This document shows positions 2,702 to 57,150 of a stretch of 64,000 nt of DNA, piece after piece; within the stretch, counting starts at the first letter, position 1, and each line of letters opens with the position of its first letter. Location of the stretch: assembly GCA_017545535.1 (NCBI GenBank), contig JAFWMS010000005.1:30013-94012 (forward strand). The letters run 5' to 3'. Below the pieces are notes generated by a model, which was given only the letters and a program-made list of their open reading frames with translations, made no database searches and was not told the origin of the DNA. The DNA comes from Clostridia bacterium (lineage in GTDB: Bacteria; Bacillota; Clostridia; Christensenellales; CAG-138). Position numbers and translations under genes: made by a program.

Positions 2702-5242
2702 ATGAAGCGACTAAAAAGGATATGCATACTTTTGCTCACGGTATTGCTGCTCGCGGCCAATACCGTGTTTTCTGTGGCCGAGGGAGAGGAAGAAGCGGTG
2801 GACATGCGGGAGGTGTTGACTCTCTCCGATGAAAAGCACGCTGCCCATACCGCTCGGCTGACGGACGGCTTCTTCAACAGCCGGGTGAGCTATGCATCCG
2901 GCGAGTCGGTGAGCGTGTACGCCGCCATCGATATAGGGTATGCGTACGTCGCCTGGAACATCCTGCCCGCCGGCGTGAAGATCGCCTGGCTCGACGCTGA
3001 CAAAAAGGAAATTTCCAGCCAAGACCACGTGCCCGTTCAGTATTCCGAGATCATTCCCGTGCCCCAATCCGGGGTCCGTGGCTTCATGATCTATTTTCAA
3101 AACGAGGGCTCCGTCAGCGAGCTTTCCGCCTATACCACCGGAGAACTACCCCGGGAACTGCCTCAATTCAAGGCGCCGGAGAAGAACCCCGCCGTCATGC
3201 TGGTCTGCGGGTATCCCGGAGAGGAGCTGTCCTGCTTCGGCGGGCTGCTCCCCACGCTGATAGGAAAGGGCGTGCCCGTACAGCTGGTGTACCTGAATCC
3301 CTATAACAGGGCCCGGCAGGAGGAGTGCTTCCTGACCCTGTGGAAGATGGGGCTCACCTACGCGCCCATCTTTTTGGAGACCACCGGAAAGCGGTCTCTG
3401 GACGCGGAGGTGCTCAAATCCACCTGGGAACACAACGGAAACGTGTCCCGGGAGCTGTTGAACGTTATCGAAACCTATCGTCCCTCGGTTGTCGTAAGTT
3501 ATGGGAAGGATAAAATTCATCCCCTTATGGCGCAGAACGAGGTGGCTTACTCCGTCCTGACCGGCATCTATAGCCACATCAAAGGCAACGCCTGGCTGAA
3601 AAAAATCTATTTTGTCGTAAACAGCGACAACAAGAAGGGGGAAAAGTACGACTTTTCCGCAGGGTATGCCCAGGCGGCGGAACTGTATGAAGAAGGATAC
3701 GCTTCCTGGCGCACCTTTCACTACGTTCCCTACGCAGACGACACCTATGTTCTTTACCACACCGGTGTGGGAAAGGATACGAAGGGAGATATGCTGGAGG
3801 GCGTCTCCTTCGAGGCTTTGAGCACCCCCGTGCCCACGGCTGCGCCCACCCCGGAACCTACGGAGGAGCCTACGCCCACGCCGACAGAGGAACCGACAGC
3901 CACCCCCACGGCGGAACCTACGGCTACGCCGACCCTGGTGCCCTCCACGGAAGCGCCCGTCATCGGGGCGGCGGTCGTAGACATGTCCACGCCAGTACCC
4001 ACGCCCATGCCGCGTCTGGCAGAAACGAGAACGGTGCTGTTGCCCGTCCTGCTTTCTATGGCGCTGGCGGCGATGCTGTTCGTGGCCATGGTGCTGTTGA
4101 AGAGGCTGCTCAAAACCCGGCTGCCGGTGTTCGTAGGCATCCTAGTGCCTATCCTGGCCGGGACGATCCTCTGCTTCGGGCTGTATCGGGCGGCGTCCGT
4201 CAATGAACGGCAGGCCGCGGCGGCGGAGCGTTTTGACGCCATATTGGCGGAGGCGGCGACCCGGACGCCGGTGCCGACCTTTACCCCGACGCCTACGGAT
4301 ACGCCGGCGCCCACGGATACGCCCACCCCGGCGCCTACGGATACGCCGGAACCCACGCCGATGCCTACGGAGGAGCCCACGCCGGAGCCTACGTCCACTC
4401 CGAACCCGGAAGATGTTTGGTACAGCGACACGGAGATCGTGGAGGCGAGCCCGGAATTTGGCAAGTGGTCCTATAAGAACAAGACCCTTTCCATCACGAT
4501 CAATGAGTTGACAGGCACCTGCGCCTACGGCAAGAGTACCCTGGACTTCCCCTACTATGTGGCGGAAATCCGCATGCGGGCAGACGAGTTCAGGACCGGC
4601 TTCGGTCACGAGAGCCGCAACGGTATGACCTCGGCAGACGCCAAACAGATTGCCCGTCGGTATAAGGCGGTGCTTATGGTCACCGGCGACAATATTCGGA
4701 ACATGGATATCGAAAAGAAGGGCGTGTTGATCCGAGACGGATATCTGTACAACGGCGGTAAGAAGGCGGACGTGATGGCGTGGCGGTCGGAATACATGTC
4801 CATCGATCTTATTCCCAAGGAGAACATCGTTTCTGCCCAGGATTTGATGGAGCAGGGCGTAGAAAACTCCATTTCCTTCGGGCCGTCTCTGATTTTGAAC
4901 GGGGAAAGGGCCACAGATAAGGTGTTGGAAAAGCATTGGTTATATAAGACGAACCCCCGGGTGGGAATCGGTATGGTGGAACCGGGGCACTTCATCGTGG
5001 TGGTCGGAGGATATCGGAGCGACAACCCCAAGGCGAATCTTGGCTGGAATTTGATAGAGTTTGCAGATTTGATGGTGTCGCTTGGCTGCCGACAGGCCTA
5101 TAACGTGGACGGCGGCGTATCCGCCTGCATGATTTTTATGGGCGAACGACTGAACCGGGGCGGCAATAAGAAGGACTGGAGCGCTCTTCGCAACCTGCCC
5201 GATGGCATCATCTTTGGATATTCCGAAAACGTGCCGGATTGA
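2702..5242 (+). CDS. Membrane-anchored surface protein: degenerate PIG-L-like domain, Pro/Thr linker, TM hairpin, Pro/Thr linker, phosphodiester glycosidase (NAGPA-like) domain
   Basis: Signal peptide from ATG 2702, 2 nt after the dnaN stop. GYPGEE in place of HPDDE; two TM helices; NPRVGIGMVEPGHF and AYNVDGGVS motifs. Same architecture as 54530..57076. Confidence 0.8.
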   Translation: MKRLKRICILLLTVLLLAANTVFSVAEGEEEAVDMREVLTLSDEKHAAHTARLTDGFFNSRVSYASGESVSVYAAIDIGYAYVAWNILPAGVKIAWLDADKKEISSQDHVPVQYSEIIPVPQSGVRGFMIYFQNEGSVSELSAYTTGELPRELPQFKAPEKNPAVMLVCGYPGEELSCFGGLLPTLIGKGVPVQLVYLNPYNRARQEECFLTLWKMGLTYAPIFLETTGKRSLDAEVLKSTWEHNGNVSRELLNVIETYRPSVVVSYGKDKIHPLMAQNEVAYSVLTGIYSHIKGNAWLKKIYFVVNSDNKKGEKYDFSAGYAQAAELYEEGYASWRTFHYVPYADDTYVLYHTGVGKDTKGDMLEGVSFEALSTPVPTAAPTPEPTEEPTPTPTEEPTATPTAEPTATPTLVPSTEAPVIGAAVVDMSTPVPTPMPRLAETRTVLLPVLLSMALAAMLFVAMVLLKRLLKTRLPVFVGILVPILAGTILCFGLYRAASVNERQAAAAERFDAILAEAATRTPVPTFTPTPTDTPAPTDTPTPAPTDTPEPTPMPTEEPTPEPTSTPNPEDVWYSDTEIVEASPEFGKWSYKNKTLSITINELTGTCAYGKSTLDFPYYVAEIRMRADEFRTGFGHESRNGMTSADAKQIARRYKAVLMVTGDNIRNMDIEKKGVLIRDGYLYNGGKKADVMAWRSEYMSIDLIPKENIVSAQDLMEQGVENSISFGPSLILNGERATDKVLEKHWLYKTNPRVGIGMVEPGHFIVVVGGYRSDNPKANLGWNLIEFADLMVSLGCRQAYNVDGGVSACMIFMGERLNRGGNKKDWSALRNLPDGIIFGYSENVPD

Positions 5243-8876: not shown

Positions 8877-8911
8877 GCGCTGTTCCCCCTCATGTATCTG
8901 TTTTGAATAGG

Positions 8912-8942: not shown

Positions 8943-8962
8943 CTAAATGCTTTCCTGTTTGT

Positions 8963-19021: not shown

Positions 19022-19024
19022 GCT

Positions 19025-19846: not shown

Positions 19847-19861
19847 AAGGAGAGAAATCGT

Positions 19862-20392: not shown

Positions 20393-20431
20393 GACAAACT
20401 GCCGCCGGATCGGGTTTAGGAGGAACACGCT

Positions 20432-20833
20432 ATGGAACGAAAACTGAAAATGCGTGTCCTCATCGCCAAGCCCGGCCTGGGCGGCCATGACCGGCGCGCC
20501 AAGCAGATCGCCCAGGGGCTCAAGGAGCAGGGCTTCGAGGTGATCTTCACCGGCCTTCGCCAGACCCCCAGCCAGATCGTAGACGCCGCCCTCCTTCATG
20601 AGGTGGACGCGGTGGGCCTGAGCCTGTCCGACATGGACCAAGGGGCCTTGACGACCCAGATGCACAGCCTTATAGCCAGGGACGTGGTCCTCTTCGGCTT
20701 CGGCAGCATCCGGGAGGAGGACGTGCCCGCCCTTTTGGGCGCCGGGCTGGAGGCCGTGTTCCCCGCGGAATCCTCCGTGGAGGATATGGCGGACTTCCTG
20801 CGGCGTCGCTGTGCGCTGACCGGGACCTATTGA
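20432..20833 (+). CDS. Cobalamin-binding domain of the methylmalonyl-CoA mutase small-subunit type, degenerate
   Basis: RVLIAKPGLGGHDRRAK versus canonical KPGLDGHDRGAK; GFEVIFTGLRQTP. Confidence 0.8.
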   Translation: MERKLKMRVLIAKPGLGGHDRRAKQIAQGLKEQGFEVIFTGLRQTPSQIVDAALLHEVDAVGLSLSDMDQGALTTQMHSLIARDVVLFGFGSIREEDVPALLGAGLEAVFPAESSVEDMADFLRRRCALTGTY

Positions 20834-20847
20834 AAAGAAGGCGTGCG

Positions 20848-20878
20848 CCCACCGTGACGCACGCCTTCCCGTATTTTT
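20848..20878 (+). terminator. Intercistronic hairpin
   Basis: GAAGGCGTGCG...CGCACGCCTTC followed by a T-rich tract. Confidence 0.5.
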
Positions 20879-20908
20879 GAAATCAAAATGCAAACAGGAG
20901 GATTGATT

Positions 20909-21313
20909 ATGGAACTCAAACGCGTTGACCATATCGGTATCGCCGTGAAGGATCTGGACGAGGCTGTGAAATTCTATGAGACCGCCATCGGCCTCAAGGC
21001 CGTGGGCTTCGAGACCGTGGAGGAGCAGAAGGTGAAGGTCGCCTTCCTGCCCTGCGGCGACAGCGAGCTGGAGCTTTTGGAGAGCACCGAGCCTGACGGC
21101 CCCATCGCCCGCTTCATCGAGAAGAACGGCCCCGGCATCCAGCACATCGCCATCCGGGTGGACGACATCGACAAGGCTCTCGAGGAGCTGAAGGAGAAGG
21201 GCGTCCGCCTTATCGACCAGACTCCCCGCTACGGCGCTGGCGGCGCGCGCATCGCGTTCGTCCATCCCAAGGCCACCGGCGGCGTGTTGCTGGAGCTCAC
21301 CCAGCGGATGTAA
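20909..21313 (+). CDS. mce: Methylmalonyl-CoA epimerase
   Basis: DHIGIAV, GIQHIAIRVDD, FVHPKATGGVLLEL. Confidence 0.95.
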   Translation: MELKRVDHIGIAVKDLDEAVKFYETAIGLKAVGFETVEEQKVKVAFLPCGDSELELLESTEPDGPIARFIEKNGPGIQHIAIRVDDIDKALEELKEKGVRLIDQTPRYGAGGARIAFVHPKATGGVLLELTQRM

Positions 21314-21325
21314 TGAGGTGAAAGC

Positions 21326-22912: not shown

Positions 22913-22925
22913 TTTCCCCAACGAC

Positions 22926-22960
22926 AAAAGGACGCTGCTTCGACGGGCAGCGTCCTTTTC
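22926..22960 (+). terminator. Rho-independent terminator
   Basis: AAAAGGACGCTGC...GCAGCGTCCTTTT. Confidence 0.85.
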
Positions 22961-23053
22961 TGTTATTTTGCGGGGATCAAAAAAGGATCGTGCGCTGAGA
23001 GAAAAGGGGTCTGCACGGAGACGGACGCCTGCAGGAGAAGCGCCGATGCGTCC

Positions 23054-23082
23054 TTGCATTTTCCCAAAAAACATGCTATATT
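23054..23082 (+). promoter_or_regulatory. Sigma-A promoter of the glycerol operon
   Basis: TTGCAT-17 bp-TATATT with extended -10 TG. Confidence 0.65.
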
Positions 23083-23160
23083 CATAGGGCTGTGAAACAA
23101 TGTGCGACCGGTGAGGTATGATAAGCGGCATGACACGCAGGCATACGAATATCGAAACAT

Positions 23161-23202
23161 ACAAAAACCATACGTTCCTTGAGGGACGCATGGTTTTTGT
23201 TC
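23161..23202 (+). promoter_or_regulatory. Leader terminator/attenuator upstream of glpK
   Basis: ACAAAAACCATACGTTCC-ttga-GGGACGCATGGTTTTTGT between the promoter and the start codon. Confidence 0.6.
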
Positions 23203-47502: not shown

Positions 47503-49917
47503 TTACGGGCCCGGGACGAGATCGCTGGTGAGGTAGCCCACCATGTCCCGCAGGCCCCGCCAGCCGCCGTTTGAAAAGGAGGATCGGTTGATCGTGTTGC
47601 CCATGAACACCATCATGCTGGAGCGGCCCCCGTCCAGGTTGTAGGCGATGACGCAGCCGTAGTCCAGCAGGCTTTCTACCACCTGCGCCAGGGTGGAGGA
47701 CCCGTAGGCGGCGCCGATGTGGTGATAGGGGCAGATGGAGGCCATGACGGAGCGCATGGTCACGTCGTTATAGGACAGTGGGTGCTTGTGGATGTCCATG
47801 GCCAAGCCGTCCTCGATGAGCGTGGGGCCGAACACCCAGGAATCGTTCACGCCCTGGGCCAGCAGTTCCTCGGCGGTGACCTCCGTCGGGTCGATGATCC
47901 GCATGGACCCGTCGGGGAAGAAGCCGAATCCAATCGTTTTTTTGTCCTGTTTAAACACGCGGCCCCGGCGGATCTGCAGGCCGTCAGCGTTGCGGCGGAA
48001 GGTGAAATAATCCCCCGTCAAGGCGAAGACCGCCCTGTTTTGACGAGCCAGTGTGGTGGCGCTGACGGGATCGCCGGGTTTGTCGCCGCCACCGGAAAAG
48101 ATGCCCACCGGCGGGTGTCCATAGGTGCAGATCAGGTCCGCCCGGGTGGCCTTGATTTTGCCGGTGTCCACGTCGAAGGCGATGACTACGCTGCCCTCGC
48201 CGCTGCAATAGAACCAGGGGCCGTCCCGTTGATCGCCCACGTAGACCAACTCCGTTTCCGCAGGATGGGCGGGAGCAATTCGCTGTTCCTGCTCCTCCGC
48301 CGGGAACAGGGCCGAGCCTTCCAGGGCGCACTGGCCGTGGCCGTTGGCTCCGGCGGAGACGACGGTGCCGTCGCTGAGCAGGGCCACGGTGTGCCAAAGC
48401 CCCGTGCCGAAGGCAATGACCTCCCGCCAGTCGGTCACAGCGCACTGGCCGCAGCCGTTGTCCCCCACGGCCAGCAGCCGCCAATCGGCGGTGAGGCCCA
48501 CCGTGAAGTTGCCTCCGCAGCGGATCTCGATCACGTTCTTCCAGTCGGTCACGCCGCATTGGCCGAAGCTGTTGTCCCCGGCGGCCACCACGCGGCCGTC
48601 CTTCAGCAAAGCCACGGTGTGCCGCAGCCCGGCGGAAACGGAGATCACGTCGGTCCAGTCCCCCACCTGGCATTGGCCATCCAGATCCAGGCCCGCCGCC
48701 ACCACCGTGCCGTCATCCATGAGACCCACGCTGTGGAAGCCACCGGCGGCAACCTTCGTGATGCGGGTCCATTCCTCCGCCGCGCCCCGGCCGTACTGCC
48801 GGGCGCCCAGGTGCGTTACGGTCCCGTCGTCATGGAGGACAAGGCCGTGGTTCAGCCCCAGGGCGGCGTCCCTGGCGTCGGTGATCCTATCCGCGGCATC
48901 CAGGGCCCCCAGGGTGTCCCCCAGCAGCTCCACCCGGCCTTCGGTCAGCCGGATCATGGAGAAGGGACCGCCTATCACCCGATCCTCCGAGGAAAAGACG
49001 GCTTTCAGATCATCGTATCGCTTGTCCCCCGTGAGAAGGGGCTCGCTCCCCAGGGCCAGGGAATACCAAACGCCGGCCAGGAGCCGGTCGGCATACTTGG
49101 CCCGCAGGTCAGAAAGCTTTTTGTTTCGGGCGTCCGTCAGGGCTGCCGCCGTGTCTTTTCGAAGGCTGTCGTCGGAAAGCCCCGAAAGGATATCCATGGC
49201 CCGCCGGGGGGCCAGCGCTTCCATGGCTTCCCACGCCTGGTCGATCAGCTTTCGGTCGTTTTCGTCCGTGATCTGCTGCTGGATCTCGCCGACGAGCTCC
49301 GGTTGGAGCCCGGATTCCTTCACCAGAGCCAGCGCCTCCGCCAGCCGTCCCTCCTCCCGGGCCTTCAATGCGGAGAGTAGGATCTCCTGCCGGTTCAATG
49401 TGCCTGTCAGCTCGTCTATCAGGGCAAGGGCCCTGGGCGAAGTCAGGCCGGACGCCTTCACCAAGGTCAGAGCCTCCTGCAGATCCCCCTCTTCGCTGGC
49501 CAGGATGGCCCGGGCGAACAGGGCCCGCAGATCCAGCGCCTCCCTCAGAAAAGCGACGGGCGCGTCGGGATGGGTGGCATGATCGGGCGCGGTCTCAAAG
49601 ACGTTCCGCTCCATCAGATAGCGGGGTCCGTCTTCCGTTTCCAAAAGGGCGTCCACACAGGAGAGGACCCCCTCGGCGCCTGCCTGGGGCAGCTCCTTCC
49701 CCAGGGGCGTATAGCGCAGGGGCGTTATGTCCTCCATAAGCTGGGCGTAGGCCTCCATCGCCTCGCCGTATTGGCCCTCGGCATACAGCTTGTCTCCGGT
49801 TTCCTTGGCTGTCTCCCGGCCCTGCAGCTGGCTGTACAGATACCAGCCTGCGGCCAACGCCGCTCCCAAGAGAAGGACGATGATTATATAAAACATGGTA
49901 CGTTTTTTCTGTTGCAT
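47503..49917 (-). CDS. Membrane-anchored protein: TPR-like helices, RCC1/BLIP-II repeats, phosphodiester glycosidase (NAGPA-like) domain
   Basis: N-terminal TM; repeats of AG.HTVAL..DG.V.A.G.N..GQC; C-terminal ALTGD, FGPTLI, AYNLDGGRS. Confidence 0.85.
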   Translation of the reverse strand: MQQKKRTMFYIIIVLLLGAALAAGWYLYSQLQGRETAKETGDKLYAEGQYGEAMEAYAQLMEDITPLRYTPLGKELPQAGAEGVLSCVDALLETEDGPRYLMERNVFETAPDHATHPDAPVAFLREALDLRALFARAILASEEGDLQEALTLVKASGLTSPRALALIDELTGTLNRQEILLSALKAREEGRLAEALALVKESGLQPELVGEIQQQITDENDRKLIDQAWEAMEALAPRRAMDILSGLSDDSLRKDTAAALTDARNKKLSDLRAKYADRLLAGVWYSLALGSEPLLTGDKRYDDLKAVFSSEDRVIGGPFSMIRLTEGRVELLGDTLGALDAADRITDARDAALGLNHGLVLHDDGTVTHLGARQYGRGAAEEWTRITKVAAGGFHSVGLMDDGTVVAAGLDLDGQCQVGDWTDVISVSAGLRHTVALLKDGRVVAAGDNSFGQCGVTDWKNVIEIRCGGNFTVGLTADWRLLAVGDNGCGQCAVTDWREVIAFGTGLWHTVALLSDGTVVSAGANGHGQCALEGSALFPAEEQEQRIAPAHPAETELVYVGDQRDGPWFYCSGEGSVVIAFDVDTGKIKATRADLICTYGHPPVGIFSGGGDKPGDPVSATTLARQNRAVFALTGDYFTFRRNADGLQIRRGRVFKQDKKTIGFGFFPDGSMRIIDPTEVTAEELLAQGVNDSWVFGPTLIEDGLAMDIHKHPLSYNDVTMRSVMASICPYHHIGAAYGSSTLAQVVESLLDYGCVIAYNLDGGRSSMMVFMGNTINRSSFSNGGWRGLRDMVGYLTSDLVPGP

Positions 49918-50053
49918 GGTTAATTGTATTGTAACAATATCCCGCTGATACTGTCAACATCCCTTGAAATGAATGCTCCTCTTGTTGTATACTAAATATC
50001 ATATACAGTTACACTTTCGATCAGCATCGTTTTGCGAGAAAGGGAGAGACAAA

Positions 50054-53000
50054 ATGAAGACGAAAAAATGGCTGCTCCTGGCCCTCTGCCTGCTGCTGGC
50101 CCTGGCCTTTGTCCCGGCGACGGCCCGCGCGGAGGAATATAGCGGACAATGCGGCGACGATTTGTATTGGTCCTATGATGAATCGAATGGCACACTGACT
50201 ATCACCGGAAGTGGGGCCATGTGGGATTATGATTCAAGACCGCCATGGCATGATCATCAATATGGTATTACAACAGTCAAGATTAGTGATGGTACAACGC
50301 ACATTGGGAAATATGCATTCGACTGTTGTTACTATCTGACAAGTGTTTCGTTCCCAAGCGGCATGGAAAGCATCGGCGACAATGCATTTCGCTATTGCAG
50401 CAGTATCAAAAGTCTGCGCTTTAGCAAGTGGATTAGAAACATTGGAGCATATGCTTTTTTTGGCTGTGACGAGCTGCAGAGCGTTTATTTTGAGAGTATC
50501 GGCTTACCAATTCCAGGAGAAGAAACCTACATCGTTAGTGGGGATCTATTCCTAAGCATTGGGAACTATGCTTTTGCGGGTTGTAAAGCGCTAAAAACAC
50601 TGTCGCTTTCTGACCACTTGGAGATCATTGGGGATCACGCTTTCGACGGATGCAAACGATTGACGAGTCTTACGCTGGGCGAATGGGTAAGGACAATCGG
50701 CGAGTCCGCTTTTGAAAGTTGTGATGGTCTGACTGGCGTCACTATCCCCGCCAGTGTGGTAAAGATCGGCCGTTTTGCGTTTACGTATTGCAACGATCTG
50801 GAGTGGATCGAAGTTGAAAATGGTAACTGGTACTATAGTAGTATTGATGGCGTGTTGTTCACCAGGGATAAACATGAATTGCTCTATTATCCTTTCGGCA
50901 GTTGGACGACCAGCTATACGATTCCTGAAAGCGTCACGCGTATTGGCGACTATGCTTTCTATCATTGCGTCAATCTGAGAAATATAACGATCCCCCCAAA
51001 TGTTGAAAGTATCGGCAATTCGGCTTTTGAGCACTGTATCAACCTGTCGCGGATAACCAATCAAGCGGGGTTTACGAGCATTGGGGAACGTGCCTTCTGG
51101 GAATGCTACAAGTTAACGAGCGTAACGCTGCCAGGCACCGTAACGAGCATTGGAAGTTGGGCTTTCTATCATTGCAACAACCTGACGGACATCAATATTC
51201 CAGACAGTGTGACGAGCATAGGGAAAGGCGTATTTTATGATTGCCGTAAATTATCGAATATACTTATTCCGGGCAGTATCGAAAGCGTCACTGTGAGTGC
51301 TTTTCGGTCCTGTCAAGGGCTGACGGAGGTGACGATCCAGGAGGGCGTGTTCAGAATTGAGGAAGAAGCTTTTAGAGAATGTGTGGGCCTTACGACCATA
51401 ACGCTTCCCAATAGCCTGACCAGCATCGACAGGAGTGCTTTTACTGACTGTACGGGGCTGACGAGTATCACTGTCGCGTCGGACAATCAGAACTACAAAG
51501 ATGTGGATGGGGTGCTCTTTACCAAGGACGGTAAGGAGCTGTTGGTTTATCCGGCAGGACGGGCTGGCAGCTACACCATCCCTAGCAGCGTCACCAGCAT
51601 CAGCGGAAATGCATTTTCTATGTGCACGGGGCTGACGAGTATCACGATCCCCAGCAGCGTCACCATCATCGGCTCCTATGCGTTTAATGGCTGTACGGGG
51701 CTGAAAACGGTAAAATATGGCGGGACTCAAGCACAAAAAGCCCAAATGAGCATTGGAGAGTATAATGAGCCTTTGCTGAACGCCACCTGGAAGTGCGCCA
51801 TAAACGTTTCCTTCAATGCCAACGACGGCGCCGTGAGCCCCACCACCAAGGTGGTGCAGTACGGCCAGGCCTACGGCACCCTGCCCACGCCCACCCGTAG
51901 CGGCTACATCTTTGACGGCTGGTGGACGACTAAGGAGACCGGCGGCAAGCAGGTGACGGCGTCCACGGTGTGCTACGCTTCCGGGAACTACACTCTGTAC
52001 GCCCGCTGGACACCCAAAACCTATACCGTCACCCTGAACCCCAACGGTGGCACTGTGAGCCCCACCACCAAGACCGTCACCTACGGCCAGGCCTACGGCG
52101 CCCTGCCCACGCCCACTCGAAGCGGATACACCTTCCTGGGCTGGTGGACCGCCAAGGAGACTGGCGGCAAGCAGGTGACGGCGACAACCGTCTGCTACGC
52201 CTCCGGGAACTACACCCTCTATGCCAGCTGGAAAGCGGGTCAGACCTACACCGTGACGCTGAACGCCAACGGCGGCACCTGCGGGACTTCCACCAAGACC
52301 GTGACCTACGGCACAGCCTACGGCACCATGCCCGTGCCCAAGCGGCTCGGGTACACCTTCGCCGGCTGGTGGACCGTCAAGGACGCCGGAGGGAAGAAGG
52401 TGACGGCCAGCACCATCTGCTATGCCACCGGGAACTACACCCTCTACGCCCGCTGGACGGAGGGGTACACCATGACCTTCGATCCCAACGGCGGCGCCGT
52501 GAGCCCTACCACCAAGGTGGTGAAGTACGGCCAGCAGTACGGCGCCATGCCCACGCCCACCCGGGCCGGGTACACATTCACCGGTTGGTGGACCACCAAG
52601 GCGGAGGGCGGCAAGAAGGTCGTGTCCACCACGGTGTGCTACGCCGCTTCCGGCTACACCCTGTACGCCCGGTGGACGGCGAAGAAGTTCGTCGTCACCC
52701 TGAACCCTAACGGCGGCGAATGCGCCACGGCCACCAAGACGGTGACCTACGGCCAGGCCTATGGGACCATGCCGGTGCCCTCGCCCCGGACGGGCTACAC
52801 CTTCGCCGGCTGGTACACCGCCAAGACCGGCGGCAAGAAGGTTACGGCCACCACGGTCTGCTACGCCTCCGGGAACTACACCCTCTACGCCCGCTGGACG
52901 CCCAAGACCTACACGATCACCTTCAACCCCAACGGCGGCAGCTGCTCCACGGCCAGCAAAAAGGTGACCTATGCCCAGCAGTATGGAACCCTGCCCACGC

Positions 53001-53131
53001 CCACGAGGGCGGGCTACACCTTCGCCGGCTGGTTCACCACCCAAACGACCGGCGGCAAGCAGGTGTTCTCCTCCACCGTCTGCTACGCCACGGGCAACTA
53101 CACCCTCTACGCCCGGTGGACGAAGAACTGA
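50054..53131 (+). CDS. Surface protein with BspA-like (LRR_5) leucine-rich repeats and six Listeria-Bacteroides (InlB B-repeat) domains
   Basis: Signal peptide; many IP.SV..IG..AF..C..L repeats; C-terminal repeats of about 73 aa containing LPTPTR.GY.F.GW...TLYARW. Confidence 0.92.
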   Translation: MKTKKWLLLALCLLLALAFVPATARAEEYSGQCGDDLYWSYDESNGTLTITGSGAMWDYDSRPPWHDHQYGITTVKISDGTTHIGKYAFDCCYYLTSVSFPSGMESIGDNAFRYCSSIKSLRFSKWIRNIGAYAFFGCDELQSVYFESIGLPIPGEETYIVSGDLFLSIGNYAFAGCKALKTLSLSDHLEIIGDHAFDGCKRLTSLTLGEWVRTIGESAFESCDGLTGVTIPASVVKIGRFAFTYCNDLEWIEVENGNWYYSSIDGVLFTRDKHELLYYPFGSWTTSYTIPESVTRIGDYAFYHCVNLRNITIPPNVESIGNSAFEHCINLSRITNQAGFTSIGERAFWECYKLTSVTLPGTVTSIGSWAFYHCNNLTDINIPDSVTSIGKGVFYDCRKLSNILIPGSIESVTVSAFRSCQGLTEVTIQEGVFRIEEEAFRECVGLTTITLPNSLTSIDRSAFTDCTGLTSITVASDNQNYKDVDGVLFTKDGKELLVYPAGRAGSYTIPSSVTSISGNAFSMCTGLTSITIPSSVTIIGSYAFNGCTGLKTVKYGGTQAQKAQMSIGEYNEPLLNATWKCAINVSFNANDGAVSPTTKVVQYGQAYGTLPTPTRSGYIFDGWWTTKETGGKQVTASTVCYASGNYTLYARWTPKTYTVTLNPNGGTVSPTTKTVTYGQAYGALPTPTRSGYTFLGWWTAKETGGKQVTATTVCYASGNYTLYASWKAGQTYTVTLNANGGTCGTSTKTVTYGTAYGTMPVPKRLGYTFAGWWTVKDAGGKKVTASTICYATGNYTLYARWTEGYTMTFDPNGGAVSPTTKVVKYGQQYGAMPTPTRAGYTFTGWWTTKAEGGKKVVSTTVCYAASGYTLYARWTAKKFVVTLNPNGGECATATKTVTYGQAYGTMPVPSPRTGYTFAGWYTAKTGGKKVTATTVCYASGNYTLYARWTPKTYTITFNPNGGSCSTASKKVTYAQQYGTLPTPTRAGYTFAGWFTTQTTGGKQVFSSTVCYATGNYTLYARWTKN

Positions 53132-53198: not shown

Positions 53199-53227
53199 TT
53201 GAAACTGCGGGCTGTTTACGGTATACT
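53199..53227 (+). promoter_or_regulatory. Sigma-A promoter
   Basis: TTGAAA-17 bp-TATACT. Confidence 0.65.
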
Positions 53228-53258: not shown

Positions 53259-54518
53259 ATGAAAGGAAGGCGCGCGTTCGGCTGCATGGTCCTGGGGCTG
53301 GGGCTGCTCCTGCTGCTCTCCTCTGCACAGGCGGCGGAGGAGACGGCGACGGAGCTGACCCGGCGCTGTCGATTCCGCAAGAACGACAGCGAGGCTTCGG
53401 CCACCTATGCCTGCGATCAGCGGCTCCTTTCTGTCTGCCCCCTAAGCGAAACGGACGTGCTCCGCGTGCAGCCCCGTCAGGCGGGAAAGACCATGGGCGC
53501 CCTGTATTTTTGTCTGGACCGGCAGGAGGCTTCGCTGACCGTGCGTCAATTTGACGCGGCGGAGACCCTTTTGGCGGAGTCCCGGGCCACCACGGAGACC
53601 TATCGTCTGGCCGTGCCTCTTGCCGCGGGCTGCGTCCGGGCGGAGGTCGCCGGGACAGTCGGCCCCGTGGGCATCGCGGAGATGAGCGTATGGAGCGAAG
53701 GGGCTCTGCCCGAAACGCTGCCCCTGCCTCAGCCGTCGGTGACGCGGACGGACTTTTTGATCGTCGCCACCCACCCCGACGACGAGTGGATCTTTTTGGG
53801 GGCCGTCTACCCCATCTATGGGGCGGAGCGGGGGTATACGGGCACCTTCGCCTATGTGACCTCCCCCGACATCGGCCGGGTCCACGAGGCCATCAACAGC
53901 CTGTGGGCCGCGGGCGTGCCCACCCTGCCCTATTTCCTGGGCTTTCCGGACGTGGATCGGGCCGCGCCCAAACGGCTCAAGGACACCTTTCAGGCGGAGG
54001 AGGTCACCTTGGCCCTGGTCCGGCTGTATCGGCGGATCAAGCCTCTGGTGGTGGTGAGTCAGGACCCCGTCCGAGGGGAATACGGCCACTGGCAGCATAT
54101 CATCTCCGCCCAATCCGCCTTAGAGGCGGCGCAGCTGGCCTCCGATCCAGCCTACGATCCGGGATCGGCGGCGAAGTTCGGCACCTGGACGGTGAAGAAG
54201 GTCTATCAGCACCTGGCGAAGGAGAACCCCATCGTCCTAGACGTGACCAGCCCCTTGTCGGCCTACGACGGGGAGACCGCATTGCAGGTGGCCAAGCGGG
54301 CCTTTCAGGAGCACCGCTCCCAGCTGAAGTACGTGTTCCGTCCCTCCATCGGGCGCAGGTCCAAGGGGGACATCCGCTATTTCGGCCTGACCTTCACCAC
54401 GGTGGGTCCGGACGCGGAAAACGACATGTTTGAGCATATCGGGCAGGGCGAGCTTGCAAAGGCCCTCCTGGGCGGAACAGAGGATCTTGACGGACCGAAC
54501 CCGGATCCTAAAGAATAA
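53259..54518 (+). CDS. Secreted PIG-L/LmbE-family deacetylase with intact active-site motifs
   Basis: Signal peptide; THPDDE, LGFPD, GEYGHWQH, HRSQ. Confidence 0.88.
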   Translation: MKGRRAFGCMVLGLGLLLLLSSAQAAEETATELTRRCRFRKNDSEASATYACDQRLLSVCPLSETDVLRVQPRQAGKTMGALYFCLDRQEASLTVRQFDAAETLLAESRATTETYRLAVPLAAGCVRAEVAGTVGPVGIAEMSVWSEGALPETLPLPQPSVTRTDFLIVATHPDDEWIFLGAVYPIYGAERGYTGTFAYVTSPDIGRVHEAINSLWAAGVPTLPYFLGFPDVDRAAPKRLKDTFQAEEVTLALVRLYRRIKPLVVVSQDPVRGEYGHWQHIISAQSALEAAQLASDPAYDPGSAAKFGTWTVKKVYQHLAKENPIVLDVTSPLSAYDGETALQVAKRAFQEHRSQLKYVFRPSIGRRSKGDIRYFGLTFTTVGPDAENDMFEHIGQGELAKALLGGTEDLDGPNPDPKE

Positions 54519-54529
54519 GGAAGGAACTC

Positions 54530-57076
54530 ATGGCAAAGCGAACGATCATCTGCTTACTTTTGCTGTTGTTGATGCTGACGGCCGCCGTTCCCGCGAAGGC
54601 GGAGACGGAGGCGGCTTCGCCGTTTCTGCCCTGCGACGTGGTCGCGCCCGTGGGCCGGGAAGCCTTTGCCGGGAACCTGACGGACGGCGATTACGCCACC
54701 CGCTTCACCCTGACCGCCGGCCAGGCCCTGTCCGTGGGCTGGACCGGGGAGGCCGAGGGGGTCATGCTCCAGTGGTACGACGTGAGATATCGGGCCACCA
54801 TCAACCTGTACGATCCCGAGGGGAAGCGGCTTTCCTCCACCGCGTATCCCTTCATGCAGTACCGCATGTTCCTGCCGGCGGCGGGGGCGAGCCGGATGGA
54901 GATTCTCTGTCCCAGAGGGGGGACGAACGTGTATGCCAGCCTCTGCGAGGTGCAGGTCTACGCGGCCGGCCATGAGCCGGCGTGCCTGACCCGGGTGGAG
55001 CCGGTGGACCTGATGCTGGTTTTGTCCGGCGTCAGCGAGGAGTTGGACCTGATGGGCGGGCTCCTGCCCCTGTACGCGGGGGAGCACCGCATCCGGACGG
55101 CGGTGGTCTACGTGGGCGTGGACGACGGCAACCAAATCCAGGAGGCCTTTCATGCCCTGGAAAAAATAGGGGCGGACGTGATCCCCGTGTTTTTGCTCCG
55201 GGACGATCAGGCGACCTGCAGTATCGATCGGATGGCGGGGTTGTGGGGCGAGGCCAAGCTTAAGGAGACGCTTGCCTCCCTGTTCCGGCAGTACGCGCCC
55301 AAGGTGGTGGTGACCTGTGATCCGACGGATCGCTTCTCCAGGGTGAGGACGCCCTACACCGGCCGTCTGGTGACCCAGATTTTGACCGGGACCCAGAACG
55401 GGAAACTGCCTGTCCAGAAGTTTTATCATCTGTCCCGGGACGGGGGCACGCTGGTGGACTGGACGAAGCCCCTGGCTGCCTACGGCGGGCGGACCGCCCA
55501 AGAGGTAGCCCAGGAGGGCTATGCCTGTTATGACTCGGAGGCGTCCTTTGGCACCATCATCCCGGAGAACAGCCGGTTCGTGCTGGCCTTCTCTCAAGTG
55601 GGTGAGGACGAAGGGAGGAACGATCTCTTCGAGCACATTCTGACCGAAAGCCTCCTTTGGTACGAGGCGCCCACACCCATCCCTACGGCCACGCCCACGC
55701 CGGAACCCACGAGGGAGCCGACGCCGGAGCCCACGGCCACGCCGGAGCTCACGGCCACGCCCACCGTCGAGCCCACGAAGGAACCGACGCCGGAGCCCAC
55801 GGAAGCGCCCACGGCCGCGCCTACGGTCGCGCCGACCGCCGTTCCGGAGAAAAAGGCAGGGGCCGTCCTGGGGCTCAGCGGCGGACAGCTGGCGCTGTAC
55901 GCCCTTAGCGGCGCAGCGTTGGTCCTTGCTCTGTTCCAGATGATAAAAAAGAAAAAGCGGGCGTTGGCCCTGTTTTTGCTGATCGCCGCAGGCTTGCTGG
56001 CCTATATGGGCTATTGGCTGATCGATATGACCCCTGGGGCGGCGATCGCCGAAGCTGCGGCGTCCACGGCGGCGCCTACGGAGAAGCCGACGCCGAAGCC
56101 CACGCCGGAGCCCACAAAAGCACCTACGCCGGAGCCCACAAAAGCACCTACGCCGGGGCCCACGGAAGTGCCCACGGCCGAACCCACCGAGGCGCCCACG
56201 CCCGAACCCACCCCCACCCCGGACCCCGACGCCCGATATTTCCGGCAGGAGGGAGAATCGGCGGAGGTGGTGGTCCAGGACTATGAGAACGGCCACTGGG
56301 AATATCGCTCGGACATCCTTTCCGTCATCATCGATCGGCAGATCAGCAATGAGGACAACAAGCCCTACTGCAAGTATATCGCCCACATCCGCATGCGGAA
56401 GGTGAATAGTTACCGGTCCATCGTCTCCTCCCACTATGCCGTGGCCACGGCTGCCGAGCCGCCCTGGCGGCTGGCGCGAAACTTCAAGGCGGTGCTGGCC
56501 ATCACCGGCGACAACATCAACAACGAGGACGTGCCCTTCAAGGGCATCCTGATCCGCCGGGGCATCCTCTATTCGGATATGGCAGGGGAGGACACCCTGG
56601 TGATCCGGGACAATATGACCATGGACATCCTGCATCGGGGCGAGGAGAAGGGCGTGGATCTGCTGGACAGCGGCGTGCTCGCCACCTACAGCTTCGGACC
56701 GACCCTGGTGGAGAACTACAGCATCAACCCGGACGTGGCTCGACACCGGGTCTTCCGGGAGAATCCCCGCTGCGGCATAGGCATGGTGGAGCCGGGCCAT
56801 TTCGTGGCCATCGTCACCGACGGGAGAGATGCCCGGCGCGCCTATGGGTATACCCTGGATCAGTTTGCCGAGATCTTCCAGAGGGAAGGCGTGAAGGTGG
56901 CGTATAATCTGGACGGAGGCGCATCCGCAGCCATGGTGTTCATGGGAGAGCACGTGAACTGGCAATCCGGCGATCATCAGCGCACGTGGGCGGACGCCCT
57001 GGCCTGGGGCTATTCGAATTTGATCCCCTTGGTGACGGACCCGGTGCTGCATCCGGGCGGCGGGGATTCCTATTGA
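54530..57076 (+). CDS. Membrane-anchored degenerate PIG-L-like plus NAGPA-like protein with two Pro/Thr stalks
   Basis: Signal peptide; SGVSEE in place of HPDDE; TM-KKKKR-TM; AITGDN, NPRCGIGMVEPGHF, AYNLDGGAS. Confidence 0.82.
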   Translation: MAKRTIICLLLLLLMLTAAVPAKAETEAASPFLPCDVVAPVGREAFAGNLTDGDYATRFTLTAGQALSVGWTGEAEGVMLQWYDVRYRATINLYDPEGKRLSSTAYPFMQYRMFLPAAGASRMEILCPRGGTNVYASLCEVQVYAAGHEPACLTRVEPVDLMLVLSGVSEELDLMGGLLPLYAGEHRIRTAVVYVGVDDGNQIQEAFHALEKIGADVIPVFLLRDDQATCSIDRMAGLWGEAKLKETLASLFRQYAPKVVVTCDPTDRFSRVRTPYTGRLVTQILTGTQNGKLPVQKFYHLSRDGGTLVDWTKPLAAYGGRTAQEVAQEGYACYDSEASFGTIIPENSRFVLAFSQVGEDEGRNDLFEHILTESLLWYEAPTPIPTATPTPEPTREPTPEPTATPELTATPTVEPTKEPTPEPTEAPTAAPTVAPTAVPEKKAGAVLGLSGGQLALYALSGAALVLALFQMIKKKKRALALFLLIAAGLLAYMGYWLIDMTPGAAIAEAAASTAAPTEKPTPKPTPEPTKAPTPEPTKAPTPGPTEVPTAEPTEAPTPEPTPTPDPDARYFRQEGESAEVVVQDYENGHWEYRSDILSVIIDRQISNEDNKPYCKYIAHIRMRKVNSYRSIVSSHYAVATAAEPPWRLARNFKAVLAITGDNINNEDVPFKGILIRRGILYSDMAGEDTLVIRDNMTMDILHRGEEKGVDLLDSGVLATYSFGPTLVENYSINPDVARHRVFRENPRCGIGMVEPGHFVAIVTDGRDARRAYGYTLDQFAEIFQREGVKVAYNLDGGASAAMVFMGEHVNWQSGDHQRTWADALAWGYSNLIPLVTDPVLHPGGGDSY

Positions 57077-57085: not shown

Positions 57086-57150
57086 AAAAAACCACCCGTT
57101 GGACGAGTGGCCTGACAAAGCCTCCGGCTGGGCCGGGGGCTACTTTTGTT
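57086..57150. terminator. Paired terminators between convergent genes
   Basis: A-run plus CCACCCGT/ACGAGTGG (minus strand) and AGCCTCCGGC/GCCGGGGCT plus T-rich tail (plus strand). Confidence 0.6.

What the first reader, a model, noticed from the sequence alone, without database searches (positions are those of the whole stretch)
53259..57076. Candidate new extracytoplasmic system: active PIG-L deacetylase plus two-armed pseudo-PIG-L/NAGPA membrane proteins
Seen: a two-gene operon. The first gene encodes a secreted PIG-L protein with intact HPDDE and HWQH. The second encodes a paralogous domain lacking those residues (SGVSEE), then a Pro/Thr stalk, a TM hairpin with a short basic loop, a second stalk and a NAGPA-like domain. 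The same architecture recurs at 2702-5242 with a differently degenerate site (GYPGEE). All three appear to share an N-terminal beta-rich domain ending E(L/M/V)xx(Y/W). Known: PIG-L/LmbE proteins are metal-dependent GlcNAc de-N-acetylases; NAGPA cleaves GlcNAc-phosphodiesters. Inference: both arms face outward and form a module that binds, deacetylates and cuts a GlcNAc-phosphate-linked wall polymer or glycolipid, with the inactive domain as lectin or docking site for the active enzyme. I know no description of this combination but cannot search.
Basis: partly seen in the sequence, partly recalled or inferred. Interest (0 to 1): 0.75.

Follow-up and report, generated by a model that had tools for sequence, protein, structure and literature searches.

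The report
Surface deacetylase plus dead-deacetylase glycosidase module
A gut Clostridia bacterium carries a two-gene set that should put on the cell surface an intact sugar deacetylase and a membrane-hairpin protein joining a dead copy of that deacetylase to an "uncovering-enzyme"-type glycosidase; the set recurs in many uncultured relatives and nobody has tested what it does.

Summary
Gene 1 (53259-54518) is a signal peptide, a CBM32-like beta-sandwich and an LmbE/PIG-L domain with the full HxDD+H metal and base set; the model has pLDDT 92.7 and matches BC1534 and MshB at Z about 20. Gene 2 (54530-57076) and its paralogue (2702-5242) are signal peptide, the same beta-domain, a PIG-L paralogue without those residues, Pro/Thr stalk, two-helix hairpin with a basic loop, second stalk, and a NAGPA domain that keeps its conserved residues.

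The pattern is family-wide. None of 79 fused homologues keeps H172 or D174. In 22 adjacent pairs, 21 combine an intact stand-alone copy with a degenerate fused one, and one is reversed. Some relatives have an intact PIG-L gene beside a separate NAGPA gene, a fused protein with an intact site, or genes 1 and 2 joined in one 1225-residue protein. Six homologues lack the hairpin, so both arms lie on one side of the membrane, outside.

Best reading: an extracytoplasmic enzyme, pseudoenzyme and glycosidase module acting on a GlcNAc-bearing envelope polymer, perhaps phosphodiester-linked.

The papers searched do not describe it. This scan noted the same module twice before in other genomes. It is a new variant of known kinds.

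The parts
53199..53227 (+). promoter-like site TTGAAA-17-TATACT in front of gene 1
   Evidence: Consensus scan, 10 of 12 matches. This is a pattern match only.
53259..54518 (+). gene 1 (P0001, 419 aa): secreted CBM32-like domain plus an intact LmbE/PIG-L deacetylase; it has no membrane anchor of its own
   Evidence: The 98%-identical homologue P0124 also has 419 aa. The C-terminal tail anchor present in 75 of 116 homologues is absent here.
53259..53333 (+). signal peptide of gene 1 (residues 1-25, ending AQA)
   Evidence: Read; hydrophobic segment 5-27. The cleavage site is inferred from the usual -3/-1 rule.
53340..53702 (+). N-terminal beta-sandwich of gene 1 (residues 28-148), CBM32 / F5-8 type C-like fold
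   Evidence: Model pLDDT is above 90 here. VIA-align gives Z 12.4 to 11.5, rmsd 2.6-3.2 over 111-128 residues, to CBM32 modules (5xnr, 4a42, 7w12, 2v72) and to an F5/8 type C domain (3nng). Foldseek gives 2v72 at E 3.3e-6. No sequence-level match.
53742..54467 (+). LmbE/PIG-L catalytic domain of gene 1 (residues 162-403); THPDDE at 53769-53786, GEYGHWQH at 54075-54098
   Evidence: Pfam 29.4 bits. MshB alignment. Z 20.5 to BC1534 and 20.1 to MshB. Foldseek gives MshB at E 1e-11.
54530..57076 (+). gene 2 (P0002, 848 aa): a two-armed hairpin membrane protein
54602..54979 (+). N-terminal beta-domain of gene 2 (about residues 25-150), the same family as in gene 1
   Evidence: It is a row of alignment A3. 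BLASTP to gene 1 starts at residue 90.
54992..55645 (+). degenerate PIG-L paralogue (about residues 155-372); SGVSEE at 55025-55042 stands in place of THPDDE, and T stands at the position of the third metal ligand
   Evidence: The family profile hits MshB at E 4.4e-4 over positions 156-303. Language-model likeness to LmbE clusters is 0.95. No model was obtained.
55667..55855 (+). first Pro/Thr stalk (residues 380-442)
   Evidence: Pfam PT repeat 36.9 bits; coordinates.
55856..56029 (+). membrane hairpin: hydrophobic 443-472, loop KKKKR (55946-55960), hydrophobic 478-500
56030..56242 (+). second stalk (residues 501-571)
56243..57073 (+). NAGPA-type phosphodiester glycosidase domain (Pfam match at residues 653-824); NLDGGAS at 56906-56926
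   Evidence: Pfam E 9e-23. The profile hits 3OHG at 7.5e-12, 6OZD at 4.5e-9 and vertebrate NAGPA at 1.7e-6. 23 invariant columns lie in this part of 57 sequences.
57119..57141 (+). terminator-like hairpin after gene 2
   Evidence: 10 pairs, 8 of them G-C, then a T-rich tail. This is a pattern match only.
2702..5242 (+). paralogue P0003 (846 aa), same architecture. GYPGEE at 3209-3226; hairpin at 4028-4186 with loop KRLLKTR; NVDGGVS at 5102-5122. Its ATG lies 2 nt after the dnaN stop.
   Evidence: The orthologues L077 (58% identity) and L075 (52%) sit at the same place after dnaA-dnaN.
47503..49917 (-). possibly associated: membrane-anchored RCC1-repeat plus NAGPA protein (804 aa)
   Evidence: Pfam RCC1_2 and NAGPA at 57.3 bits. 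The same kind of gene lies divergently upstream of the closest orthologous pair, in L017.
49973..53131 (+). possibly associated: BspA-type leucine-rich-repeat surface protein directly upstream
   Evidence: Pfam LRR_5 and Flg_new. LRR genes flank fused genes in L019 and L073, L072 (same gene layout; ORFs only), and flank NAGPA paralogues in the own genome. P0318 fuses an intact PIG-L to LRR_4. The LRR families differ, so this is a lead only.

Best explanation
This is a cell-surface enzyme module of a spore-forming gut Clostridia bacterium (its relatives are labelled Christensenellales or Oscillospiraceae).

Gene 1 exports a soluble protein made of a CBM32-like sugar-binding-type domain and a zinc-dependent LmbE/PIG-L de-N-acetylase with a complete catalytic set.

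Gene 2 is held in the membrane by a two-helix hairpin and sends two long Pro/Thr stalks outward:
- One stalk carries the same beta-domain plus a PIG-L paralogue that has lost two of its three metal ligands and the general base.
- The other carries a NAGPA-type glycosidase whose conserved residues are intact.

The architecture most likely arose by fusing a tail-anchored PIG-L gene to the N-anchored NAGPA gene next to it. After duplication, catalysis stayed in the stand-alone copy, and the fused copy became a non-catalytic partner: a dock for the active enzyme, a substrate-binding module, or both.

Together the proteins process a GlcNAc-bearing envelope glycopolymer of the cell itself:
- The glycosidase cuts an alpha-GlcNAc-1-phosphate type linkage.
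- The deacetylase converts GlcNAc to GlcN.

Shown here:
- the domain identities;
- the loss of catalytic residues;
- the family-wide one-intact, one-dead pattern;
- the fusions.

Strongly inferred: the outward topology.

Inferred only: physical docking, the substrate, and the order of the reactions.
For: Domains:
- Pfam, BLASTP, PDB profile hits and the MshB alignment.
- Gene 1 model: pLDDT 92.7, pTM 0.88.
- PIG-L part: Z 20.5 to BC1534 and 20.1 to MshB. N-domain: Z about 12 to CBM32 modules.

Dead site, in 79 fused homologues:
- H172 kept in 0, D174 in 0, H277 in 0, H280 in 12.
- The structural residues E176, G181, E210, P224, P262 and K314 are kept in 74-78.
- All 60 stand-alone homologues checked keep HPDDE and GEYGHWQH.

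In 75 genome loci plus the own genome:
- 65 of 67 fused domains lack at least one of the five key residues.
- 21 of 26 stand-alone copies keep all five.

Complementarity: 22 adjacent pairs were examined.
- They are the window's own pair, 15 in the loci, and 6 in the loci.
- 21 are intact stand-alone plus degenerate fused; 1 (L033) is the reverse.
- None has both intact or both degenerate.

Origin and coupling:
- 7 of 7 unfused adjacent PIG-L and NAGPA gene pairs have an intact PIG-L; 5 of those 7 are tail-anchored.
- Fused proteins with intact sites exist: L116, L042, L033.
- P0243 (1225 aa) joins a gene-1-like part (47% identity over 374 columns) in frame to a gene-2-like part (42% over 823). 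Its cluster has 11 members, 5 of them 1150-1225 aa long.

Gene 1 lacks the Pro/Thr plus membrane tail that 75 of 116 homologues and all 14 partner proteins printed do have.

Topology:
- An N-terminal signal segment is present in 78 of 79 homologues and a central hydrophobic block in 73 of 79.
- The other 6 have a continuous linker.

Pointers to the cell's own envelope:
- P0003 orthologues sit after dnaN and before mraW and a PASTA-bearing PBP gene.
- One NAGPA paralogue overlaps a GT2-GtrA gene beside LCP, a Mur ligase and ddl.
- The genome has 4 LCP genes.
- A singleton homologue joins the dead module to an SLT lytic transglycosylase.

The NAGPA half is under tight constraint: 23 invariant columns against 2 in the N-terminal half.

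Weak support for expression:
- Short contigs from 4 RNA libraries of 3 studies cover parts of both genes.
- One contig (54416-54589) bridges the gap between the two genes.
Against: - No substrate evidence of any kind. No glycopolymer synthesis genes flank the operon itself: its neighbours are an LRR protein, an M23 peptidase and glycogen genes.
- The fused PIG-L domain evolves about three times faster than its active partner in the same two genomes (tree paths 0.85 against 0.26).
- 50 of the 65 fused genes in the loci have no stand-alone partner next to them, and neither does P0003.
- Of 25 genomes with a solitary degenerate fused gene, 4 showed no intact PIG-L at all; their completeness is unknown.
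- Degenerate stand-alone copies also exist: 5 of 26, two of them in this genome.
- P0243 has N in place of the general-base Asp.
- CBM32-like modules are typical of glycan-foraging enzymes, which fits the rival reading as well.
- The Gly-rich loop reads DGGAS or DGGVS, not the DGGGS that one paper calls invariant.
- The RNA-library contigs may be carried-over DNA.
- No model of gene 2 was obtained.
Confidence: 0.55

Rival explanations
1. Foraging. The proteins are surface-tethered catabolic enzymes that strip GlcNAc or GlcNAc-phosphate from foreign glycans (host, dietary, fungal or other bacteria's polymers), and the products are imported.
For: - The N-domain has the fold of CBM32 modules found on glycosidases of gut bacteria.
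- The DNA is found in animal gut metagenomes.
- Both families are expanded: 12 NAGPA matches and 7-8 PIG-L paralogues in 2.5 Mb.
- P0003 and the contig-7 RCC1-NAGPA gene each lie beside a HAD hydrolase and an ABC importer.
- LmbE relatives include the catabolic diacetylchitobiose deacetylase.
Against: - The operon has no sugar kinase, regulator or transporter of its own.
- P0003 orthologues keep a place between dnaN and cell-division genes.
- One NAGPA paralogue sits in a GT2-GtrA, LCP and ddl setting.
- Keeping a dead enzyme domain, and a strict intact/dead pairing, is not what a simple catabolic enzyme needs.
Confidence: 0.25
2. Relic. The degenerate PIG-L domain is a functionless remnant of the fusion that serves at most as a spacer. 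Gene 1 and gene 2 act independently.
For: - The catalytic residues are lost in all 79 fused homologues.
- The domain evolves faster than its active paralogue.
- Only 2 invariant columns lie in the N-terminal half of 57 sequences.
- Most fused genes stand alone.
Against: - The domain keeps its length, an open frame and its fold-type residues (74-78 of 79) down to about 25-30% identity.
- Several old clades all keep it.
- There are 22 of 22 complementary pairs.
- Gene 1 has lost its own anchor in just the lineage where a gene 1 and gene 2 fusion also occurs.
- The same dead module occurs on an SLT enzyme, though that is a single record.
Confidence: 0.12
3. Antagonism. The module attacks the walls of competing bacteria, as proposed for some NAGPA fusions in Bacillota.
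For: - A preprint places NAGPA in predicted conflict systems of spore-forming Bacillota (passage read).
- An SLT fusion exists.
- M23 peptidase and SH3b proteins lie nearby.
Against: - The proteins are tethered to the producer's own membrane by a hairpin or a tail anchor.
- No immunity gene, secretion system or polymorphic tip was seen in the window.
- The chromosomal position beside dnaN is conserved.
Confidence: 0.06

Closest known systems
LmbE-like / PIG-L superfamily (CAZy CE14): MshB, BshB (BC1534), TT1542, LnmX, diacetylchitobiose deacetylase
   Same: - Gene 1 has the fold: Z 20.5 to 19.8, rmsd 2.6-3.1 over 190-210 residues.
- It has the HXD1D2+H motif that the review gives as defining.
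   Different: - The characterised members reviewed act on small soluble or lipid-linked substrates. The words 'extracellular' and 'secreted' do not occur in the review's main text.
- Gene 1 has a signal peptide and an added CBM32-like domain.
- It reads HWQH where MshB has HPDH.
- The fused paralogues lack the motif altogether.
NAGPA, the mannose-6-phosphate uncovering enzyme, and bacterial DUF2233 proteins (3OHG, 6OZD, 5H3K)
   Same: - Pfam NAGPA scores well above the cut-off.
- The profile hits 3OHG and vertebrate NAGPA structures.
- The Asp-Gly-Gly loop and many other positions are invariant in the family.
   Different: - No bacterial member has a known substrate in the papers I could read. 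Das et al. 2013 is not held.
- The loop here is DGGAS or DGGVS.
- There is no EGF stalk and no propeptide.
- The domain sits on a Pro/Thr stalk after a membrane hairpin and is fused to a dead PIG-L domain.
CBM32 / F5-8 type C (galactose-binding-domain-like) modules
   Same: The fold of the shared N-terminal domain: Z 12.4 to 10 over about 115-130 residues.
   Different: - No sequence-level membership: no Pfam hit in any of 64 members.
- hhalign against 12 F5/8 type C domains of relatives gives probability 0.7%.
- Sugar binding is untested.
- The domain is almost always found with a PIG-L or dead PIG-L domain.
Two-activity exopolysaccharide processing proteins such as PgaB and PelA (recalled, not from a call)
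   Same: They pair a de-N-acetylase with a glycoside hydrolase outside the cytoplasm to process a GlcNAc-type polymer.
   Different: - Those deacetylase domains belong to other families (CE4-type), and their hydrolase domains are not NAGPA-like.
- They have no dead-enzyme partner and no hairpin tether.
- This is a resemblance in logic only.
The same module noted earlier in this scan (e1-4942653, e1-3569440; other genomes)
   Same: Surface-tethered PIG-L paralogues with a NAGPA glycosidase, in which only stand-alone copies keep the catalytic motifs, in gut or rumen Clostridia.
   Different: - Different genomes and gene sets: a four-gene cluster, and a three-gene set with an LRR lipoprotein.
- These are AI notes, not independent evidence.

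Membership tests
LmbE-like / PIG-L (PF02585, CE14) | Pfam PF02585 at its gathering score (28.2 bits) | tested here: met
   Gene 1 scores 29.4 bits, and all 64 members of its alignment hit PIG-L, best E 4.3e-12. Not met by gene 2 (19.4 bits) or by the 2702 protein (12.5 bits).
LmbE-like / PIG-L (PF02585, CE14) | HXD1D2 + H motif: two His and D2 bind the metal, and D1 is the general base (review PMC4101496, passages read) | tested here: met
   Gene 1 has H172-P-D174-D175 and H280, aligned to H13-P-D15-D16 and H147 of MshB.
LmbE-like / PIG-L, as active enzymes: the fused domains of gene 2 and of the 2702 protein | HXD1D2 + H motif | tested here: not met
   Gene 2 has G-V-S-E and T; the 2702 protein has Y-P-G-E, and its second motif is deleted. 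In 79 fused homologues H172 is kept in 0, D174 in 0 and H280 in 12. They are homologues, but I do not file them as active members.
LmbE-like / PIG-L | Rossmann-like alpha/beta fold of the family | tested here: met
   Gene 1 model has pLDDT 92.7. Z is 20.5 to 2ixd, 20.1 to 1q7t, 20.0 to 1uan and 19.8 to 3we7. Foldseek gives E 1e-11 to MshB.
LmbE-like / PIG-L: fold of the fused dead domains | the same fold | tested here: inconclusive
   No model: the jobs were interrupted or the machine did not answer. Indirect support: E 2e-23 to gene 1; the family profile hits MshB at E 4.4e-4; language-model likeness of 0.95 to LmbE clusters with 188 of 256 shared features.
LmbE-like / PIG-L | metal-dependent de-N-acetylation of a GlcNAc substrate | not testable with these tools
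   This needs enzyme assays.
NAGPA / phosphodiester glycosidase (PF09992) | Pfam PF09992 at its gathering score (25 bits) | tested here: met
   81.8 bits for gene 2 and 74.6 bits for the 2702 protein. The profile hits 3OHG at 7.5e-12 and 6PKU at 1.7e-6.
NAGPA / phosphodiester glycosidase (PF09992) | Gly-rich loop with the catalytic Asp (human 286-DGGGS-290, called strictly invariant in PMC13474241; passages read) | tested here: inconclusive
   D795, G796, G797 and S799 are invariant in 57 family members. The fourth position is A in gene 2 and V in the 2702 protein, and other residues in the genome's paralogues. The paper says this residue contacts phosphate through its backbone amide.
NAGPA / phosphodiester glycosidase (PF09992) | cleavage of a GlcNAc-alpha-1-phosphodiester at the glycosidic bond | not testable with these tools
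   This needs assays. No bacterial substrate is known from the papers read.
CBM32 / F5-8 type C | beta-sandwich fold of the galactose-binding-domain-like class | tested here: met
   Residues 28-148 of the gene 1 model: Z 12.4 (5xnr, 4a42), 11.8 (3nng, an F5/8 type C domain), 11.5 (2v72). Foldseek gives 2v72 at E 3.3e-6.
CBM32 / F5-8 type C | sequence membership (PF00754, PF18344) | tested here: not met
   No hit at E up to 1 in the three proteins or in any of 64 members. hhalign of the N-domain profile against 12 F5/8 type C domains gives probability 0.7%. The N-domain has the fold but is not filed as a member.

The most novel reading that the evidence does not exclude
Bacteria of this order have a counterpart of the eukaryotic 'uncovering' step.

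- Wall or membrane glycopolymers are made or attached with an alpha-GlcNAc-1-phosphate cap or linker.
- A membrane-tethered complex of an active deacetylase, a dead deacetylase and a NAGPA glycosidase matures or releases them.
- De-N-acetylation decides whether the glycosidase can cut, because NAGPA reads the N-acetyl group.

This would be a previously unknown type of wall-polymer turnover or release in Gram-positive bacteria, and the first enzyme/pseudoenzyme pair in the LmbE family.
Probability: 0.18. Interest if true: 0.8.

Novelty: new variant of a known kind. Interest (0 to 1): 0.6.

Why it matters
- No bacterial NAGPA-domain protein has a known substrate in what I could read.
- The LmbE enzymes in the 2014 review read here act on small soluble or lipid-linked substrates.
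- This module places both families on the outside of the cell, tied together by gene order, by fusion and by a strict one-live, one-dead rule.
- That gives a concrete handle on both families: a defined protein pair to test for binding, and a short list of GlcNAc and GlcNAc-phosphate substrates to test for activity.
- The bacteria concerned are abundant but poorly studied gut and rumen Clostridia whose envelope chemistry is largely unknown.
- It would also be a clean natural case of an enzyme turning into a pseudoenzyme partner after gene fusion.

Tried and rejected
Complex prediction of gene 1 with arm 1 of gene 2:
Nothing was folded.

Structure prediction:
- Two accepted jobs were interrupted.
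- The gene 1 job finally ran.
- The job for the N-terminal half of gene 2 (alignment A5) was never accepted.

Naming the N-domain by sequence failed, so only the fold assigns it:
- No Pfam hit in any of 64 members.
- The PDB profile search gave only antibody chains at E 0.01 or worse.
- hhalign against F5/8 type C domains gave probability 0.7%.
- DUF7402 is absent from the own genome and was found in 4 of 301 genomes of the phylum.
- One DUF7402 protein's domains do not match the N-domain profile: 4.5% and 0.3%.
- The language-model search gave only weak leads, 0.75-0.77.

Stealth (GNPTAB-like) family search in the own genome found nothing, but the control rang in no genome either, so the result is uninformative.

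Order-wide scan with the fused profile:
- 61 of 151 genomes matched some part.
- At most 6 candidates were scored per genome, so it gives no count of the full architecture.

Contexts of the genome's other paralogues are mostly scattered and give no common pathway.

RNA-library contigs leave many bins uncovered. That says nothing.

Papers:
- No paper listed holds NAGPA together with PIG-L or LmbE.
- The 'NAGPA' with 'teichoic' search brought 129 papers, and the 10 listed were off topic apart from the two already read.
- The CE14, extracellular and Clostridia search gave nothing relevant.
- C. difficile has an uncharacterised LmbE-like gene in the slpA locus without NAGPA.
- Das et al. 2013 on DUF2233 could not be read.

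Rows dropped:
- The tree used 84 of 93 domains. The 9 left out had fewer than 150 aligned columns filled, and P0003's domain was among them.

Full report
WHAT IS THERE

The two ORFs of the finding and the third at 2702-5242 exist as described.

Pfam results:
- Gene 1 (P0001, 419 aa): PIG-L at 29.4 bits, just over the 28.2-bit cut-off.
- Gene 2 (P0002, 848 aa): a strong NAGPA match (81.8 bits, E 9e-23, residues 653-824), PT repeats, and a sub-threshold PIG-L match (19.4 bits).
- P0003 (846 aa): NAGPA at 74.6 bits and a PIG-L trace (12.5 bits).

NCBIfam gave only far-sub-threshold MshB and Mca hits for gene 1.

Paralogy:
- Gene 1 aligns to the N-terminal half of gene 2 at 26% identity, E 2e-23.
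- It aligns to P0003 at 22%, E 1e-9.
- BLASTP of P0002 against P0003 aligned only the NAGPA parts (34%, E 6e-43). The N-terminal halves of the two long proteins are too far apart for a pairwise search.

Active-site motifs:
- The family profile of gene 1 aligns THPDDE and GEYGHWQH to AHPDDE and GGYGHPDH of MshB.
- These are the HXD1D2+H metal and base residues that the LmbE review gives as the family's constant feature (passages read).
- Gene 2 has SGVSEE and P0003 has GYPGEE at the first motif. Neither has the second.

FOLD

After several refusals one structure job ran. The gene 1 model has mean pLDDT 92.7 and pTM 0.88.

- Residues 162-403 match BC1534 (Z 20.5), MshB (20.1), LnmX (20.1), TT1542 (20.0) and diacetylchitobiose deacetylase (19.8). 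Foldseek gives MshB at E 1e-11.
Foldseek gives NanJ CBM32 at E 3.3e-6.
- No sequence method sees this relation, so I call the domain CBM32-like in fold only.
- P0003's N-domain matches the family's N-domain profile at 99.4% probability, so all three proteins share it.

No model of gene 2 could be obtained. Its PIG-L homology rests on three results:
- the BLASTP match to gene 1;
- a profile hit to MshB at E 4.4e-4;
- a language-model likeness of 0.95 to LmbE clusters.

THE DEAD SITE IS A FAMILY TRAIT

Full-length relatives of gene 2 are numerous but come almost only from metagenomes. Sources name them at most 'phosphodiester glycosidase family protein'. Relatives of gene 1 are named 'PIG-L family deacetylase'.

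In 79 fused homologues:
- H172, D174 and H277 are kept in none, and H280 in 12.
- The structural positions E176, G181, E210, P224, P262 and K314 are kept in 74-78.
- All 60 stand-alone homologues checked keep both motifs.

In 75 loci from species-representative genomes plus the own genome:
- 65 of 67 fused domains lack at least one of five key residues.
- 2 fused domains (L033, L042) keep all five.
- 21 of 26 stand-alone copies keep all five.
- One subgroup (AHPGDE with GEYG[HN]xAH) keeps the metal ligands but lacks the base.

A tree of 84 of the 93 domains places the degenerate fused domains in a few old clades. It needs 3 changes of label against 22.6 for shuffled labels. The 9 rows left out had too few aligned columns, and P0003's was one of them.

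Within one genome pair, the dead domain has diverged about three times as far as the live one (paths 0.85 and 0.26).

ONE LIVE, ONE DEAD

Among 65 fused genes in the loci, 15 have a stand-alone PIG-L gene next to them. Six more such pairs turned up in other genomes.

With the window's own pair that makes 22:
- 21 combine an intact stand-alone copy with a degenerate fused one.
- L033 is the reverse: an intact fused copy with a degenerate stand-alone one.
- None has two intact or two degenerate copies.

Of 25 genomes whose fetched fused gene stands alone:
- 20 hold an intact stand-alone PIG-L elsewhere;
- 1 holds an intact fused one;
- 4 showed none. Their completeness is not known.

HOW THE ARCHITECTURE AROSE

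In seven genomes of the order, an intact PIG-L gene lies next to a separate NAGPA gene.
- The PIG-L is tail-anchored in 5 of the 7, with a Pro/Thr stretch, one membrane helix and a basic tail.
- The NAGPA gene has an N-terminal signal, lipobox or anchor.

The own genome holds the same two kinds of stand-alone protein.

Joining a C-terminal anchor to an N-terminal anchor gives exactly the hairpin with a basic cytoplasmic loop. Fused proteins with an intact site exist: L116, L042, L033.

Six of 79 fused homologues have no membrane segment between the domains. Some carry a K[KR]G[LW]FSC[AG]GK remnant that looks like a decayed lipoprotein signal.

Since signal peptides start these proteins, both arms must be outside.

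COUPLING OF GENE 1 AND GENE 2

- Gene 1 lacks the tail anchor that 75 of 116 stand-alone homologues and all 14 partner proteins printed have.
- P0243 (1225 aa) is a gene-1-like protein (47% identity) fused in frame, without an intervening membrane segment, to a gene-2-like protein (42%). It is built of SGVTDE, hairpin and NAGPA.
- The P0243 cluster has 11 members. Five are 1150-1225 aa long and come from several contigs and two sources.
- Its first domain reads HPND, so the base is altered there.

In this lineage, then, the live enzyme is either soluble and encoded directly upstream, or covalently attached. That is what a docking model predicts, but it is not proof.

Operon signals and RNA:
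- Promoter-like, ribosome-binding and terminator-like signals fit a two-gene operon.
- Short contigs from four RNA libraries of three studies cover parts of both genes, and one bridges the 11-nt gap. DNA carry-over cannot be excluded.

WHAT IT ACTS ON

This is inference.

From the papers read:
- LmbE enzymes de-N-acetylate GlcNAc-type substrates.
- NAGPA cuts GlcNAc-alpha-1-phosphodiesters at the glycosidic bond and reads the N-acetyl group.

Pointers to the cell's own envelope:
- The P0003 ATG lies 2 nt after the dnaN stop.
- Its orthologues (58% and 52% identity) sit at the same place, followed by mraW and a PASTA-bearing PBP gene.
- One NAGPA paralogue overlaps a GT2-GtrA gene beside LCP, a Mur ligase and ddl.
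- The genome has 4 LCP genes.
- A singleton record joins the dead module to an SLT lytic transglycosylase.

Pointers to foraging instead:
- The N-domain has the CBM32-like fold.
- The habitat is the gut.
- The genome carries 12 NAGPA and 7-8 PIG-L paralogues in 2.5 Mb.
- HAD and ABC importer genes lie beside two NAGPA-bearing genes.

The operon's own neighbours are an LRR surface protein, an M23 peptidase and glycogen genes. They do not decide the matter.

KNOWN OR NEW

- No paper listed in my searches holds NAGPA together with PIG-L or LmbE.
- Two papers mention NAGPA fusions to other surface or conflict domains in passing (passages read).
- C. difficile has an uncharacterised LmbE-like gene in its S-layer locus.
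- The 2013 DUF2233 paper is not held.
- This scan had noted the same kind of module twice in other genomes. My results agree with those notes, but the notes are not independent evidence.

I rate it a new variant of known kinds. The enzyme families are known. The extracytoplasmic architecture, with a conserved dead-enzyme partner, is not described.

Noticed in passing
window 1602-5242; L077:4882-8556; L075:4856-8490: The P0003 gene starts 2 nt after the dnaN stop. Its orthologues in two other genomes sit at the same place after dnaA-dnaN, followed there by mraW, a small ORF and a PASTA-bearing PBP gene. It is unusual for a surface-protein gene to be tied to the replication-origin operon.
   Followed up: partly
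window 47503-49917 (-); G000 contig 7: 26213-28516; L017:3540-5513: There is a second NAGPA architecture: membrane anchor, helical region, RCC1 repeats, NAGPA. It occurs twice in this genome, and also divergently upstream of the closest orthologous gene 1 and gene 2 pair.
   Followed up: partly
whole genome G000: The 2.5-Mb genome has 12 NAGPA matches over the Pfam cut-off and 7-8 PIG-L paralogues. Most carry signal peptides, lipoboxes or anchors, and Pro/Thr linkers.
   Followed up: partly
homologues P0038, P0043, P0047, P0052, P0070 (mid-linker): Fused homologues without the hairpin carry a K[KR]G[LW]FSC[AG]GK motif in the linker. It looks like a decayed lipoprotein signal of a once separate NAGPA gene.
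   Followed up: no
P0318 (1140 aa); window 49973-53131; L019:4547-6223; L073:3902-5791; L099:1515-3380; L102:3552-5210: Leucine-rich-repeat proteins recur beside these genes. One 115-member cluster fuses the N-domain, an intact PIG-L, a stalk and an LRR_4 domain. The window's upstream neighbour is a BspA-type LRR protein, which belongs to a different LRR family.
   Followed up: partly
G000 contig 40: 184572-186994 (L096:4572-6992); L073:8485-11799: One NAGPA paralogue follows VTC-domain and DUF4956 genes in the same direction. In another genome a fused gene is followed by a Lamin-tail, CHB_HEX and CotH protein, and preceded by MBOAT and AlgX-like genes. This hints at a link to the little-understood VTC, DUF4956 and CotH gene sets.
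   Followed up: no
G000 contig 40: 20182-24250 (L103:6186-10248): A NAGPA paralogue overlaps the end of a GT2 plus GtrA-type gene. It lies back to back with an LCP gene, next to a Mur ligase and ddl.
   Followed up: no
window 5343-10165 (-); L102:8028-12085: A HAD hydrolase and an ABC importer (a solute-binding protein and a double permease; an ATPase with a TOBE domain was seen only in the window) lie beside P0003. A similar set lies beside the contig-7 RCC1-NAGPA gene.
   Followed up: no
P0379 (592 aa, single record on a 2.6-kb contig): Signal peptide, N-domain, degenerate PIG-L (AQPGEE), Pro/Thr linker and an SLT lytic transglycosylase: the dead module on a different wall enzyme.
   Followed up: partly
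window 17909-23191 (-): A 1760-aa ORF has no Pfam family at E 1e-5 and lower third-position G+C (0.62) than its neighbours. It is flanked by short low-G+C stretches. I did not check whether it is the same place.
   Followed up: no
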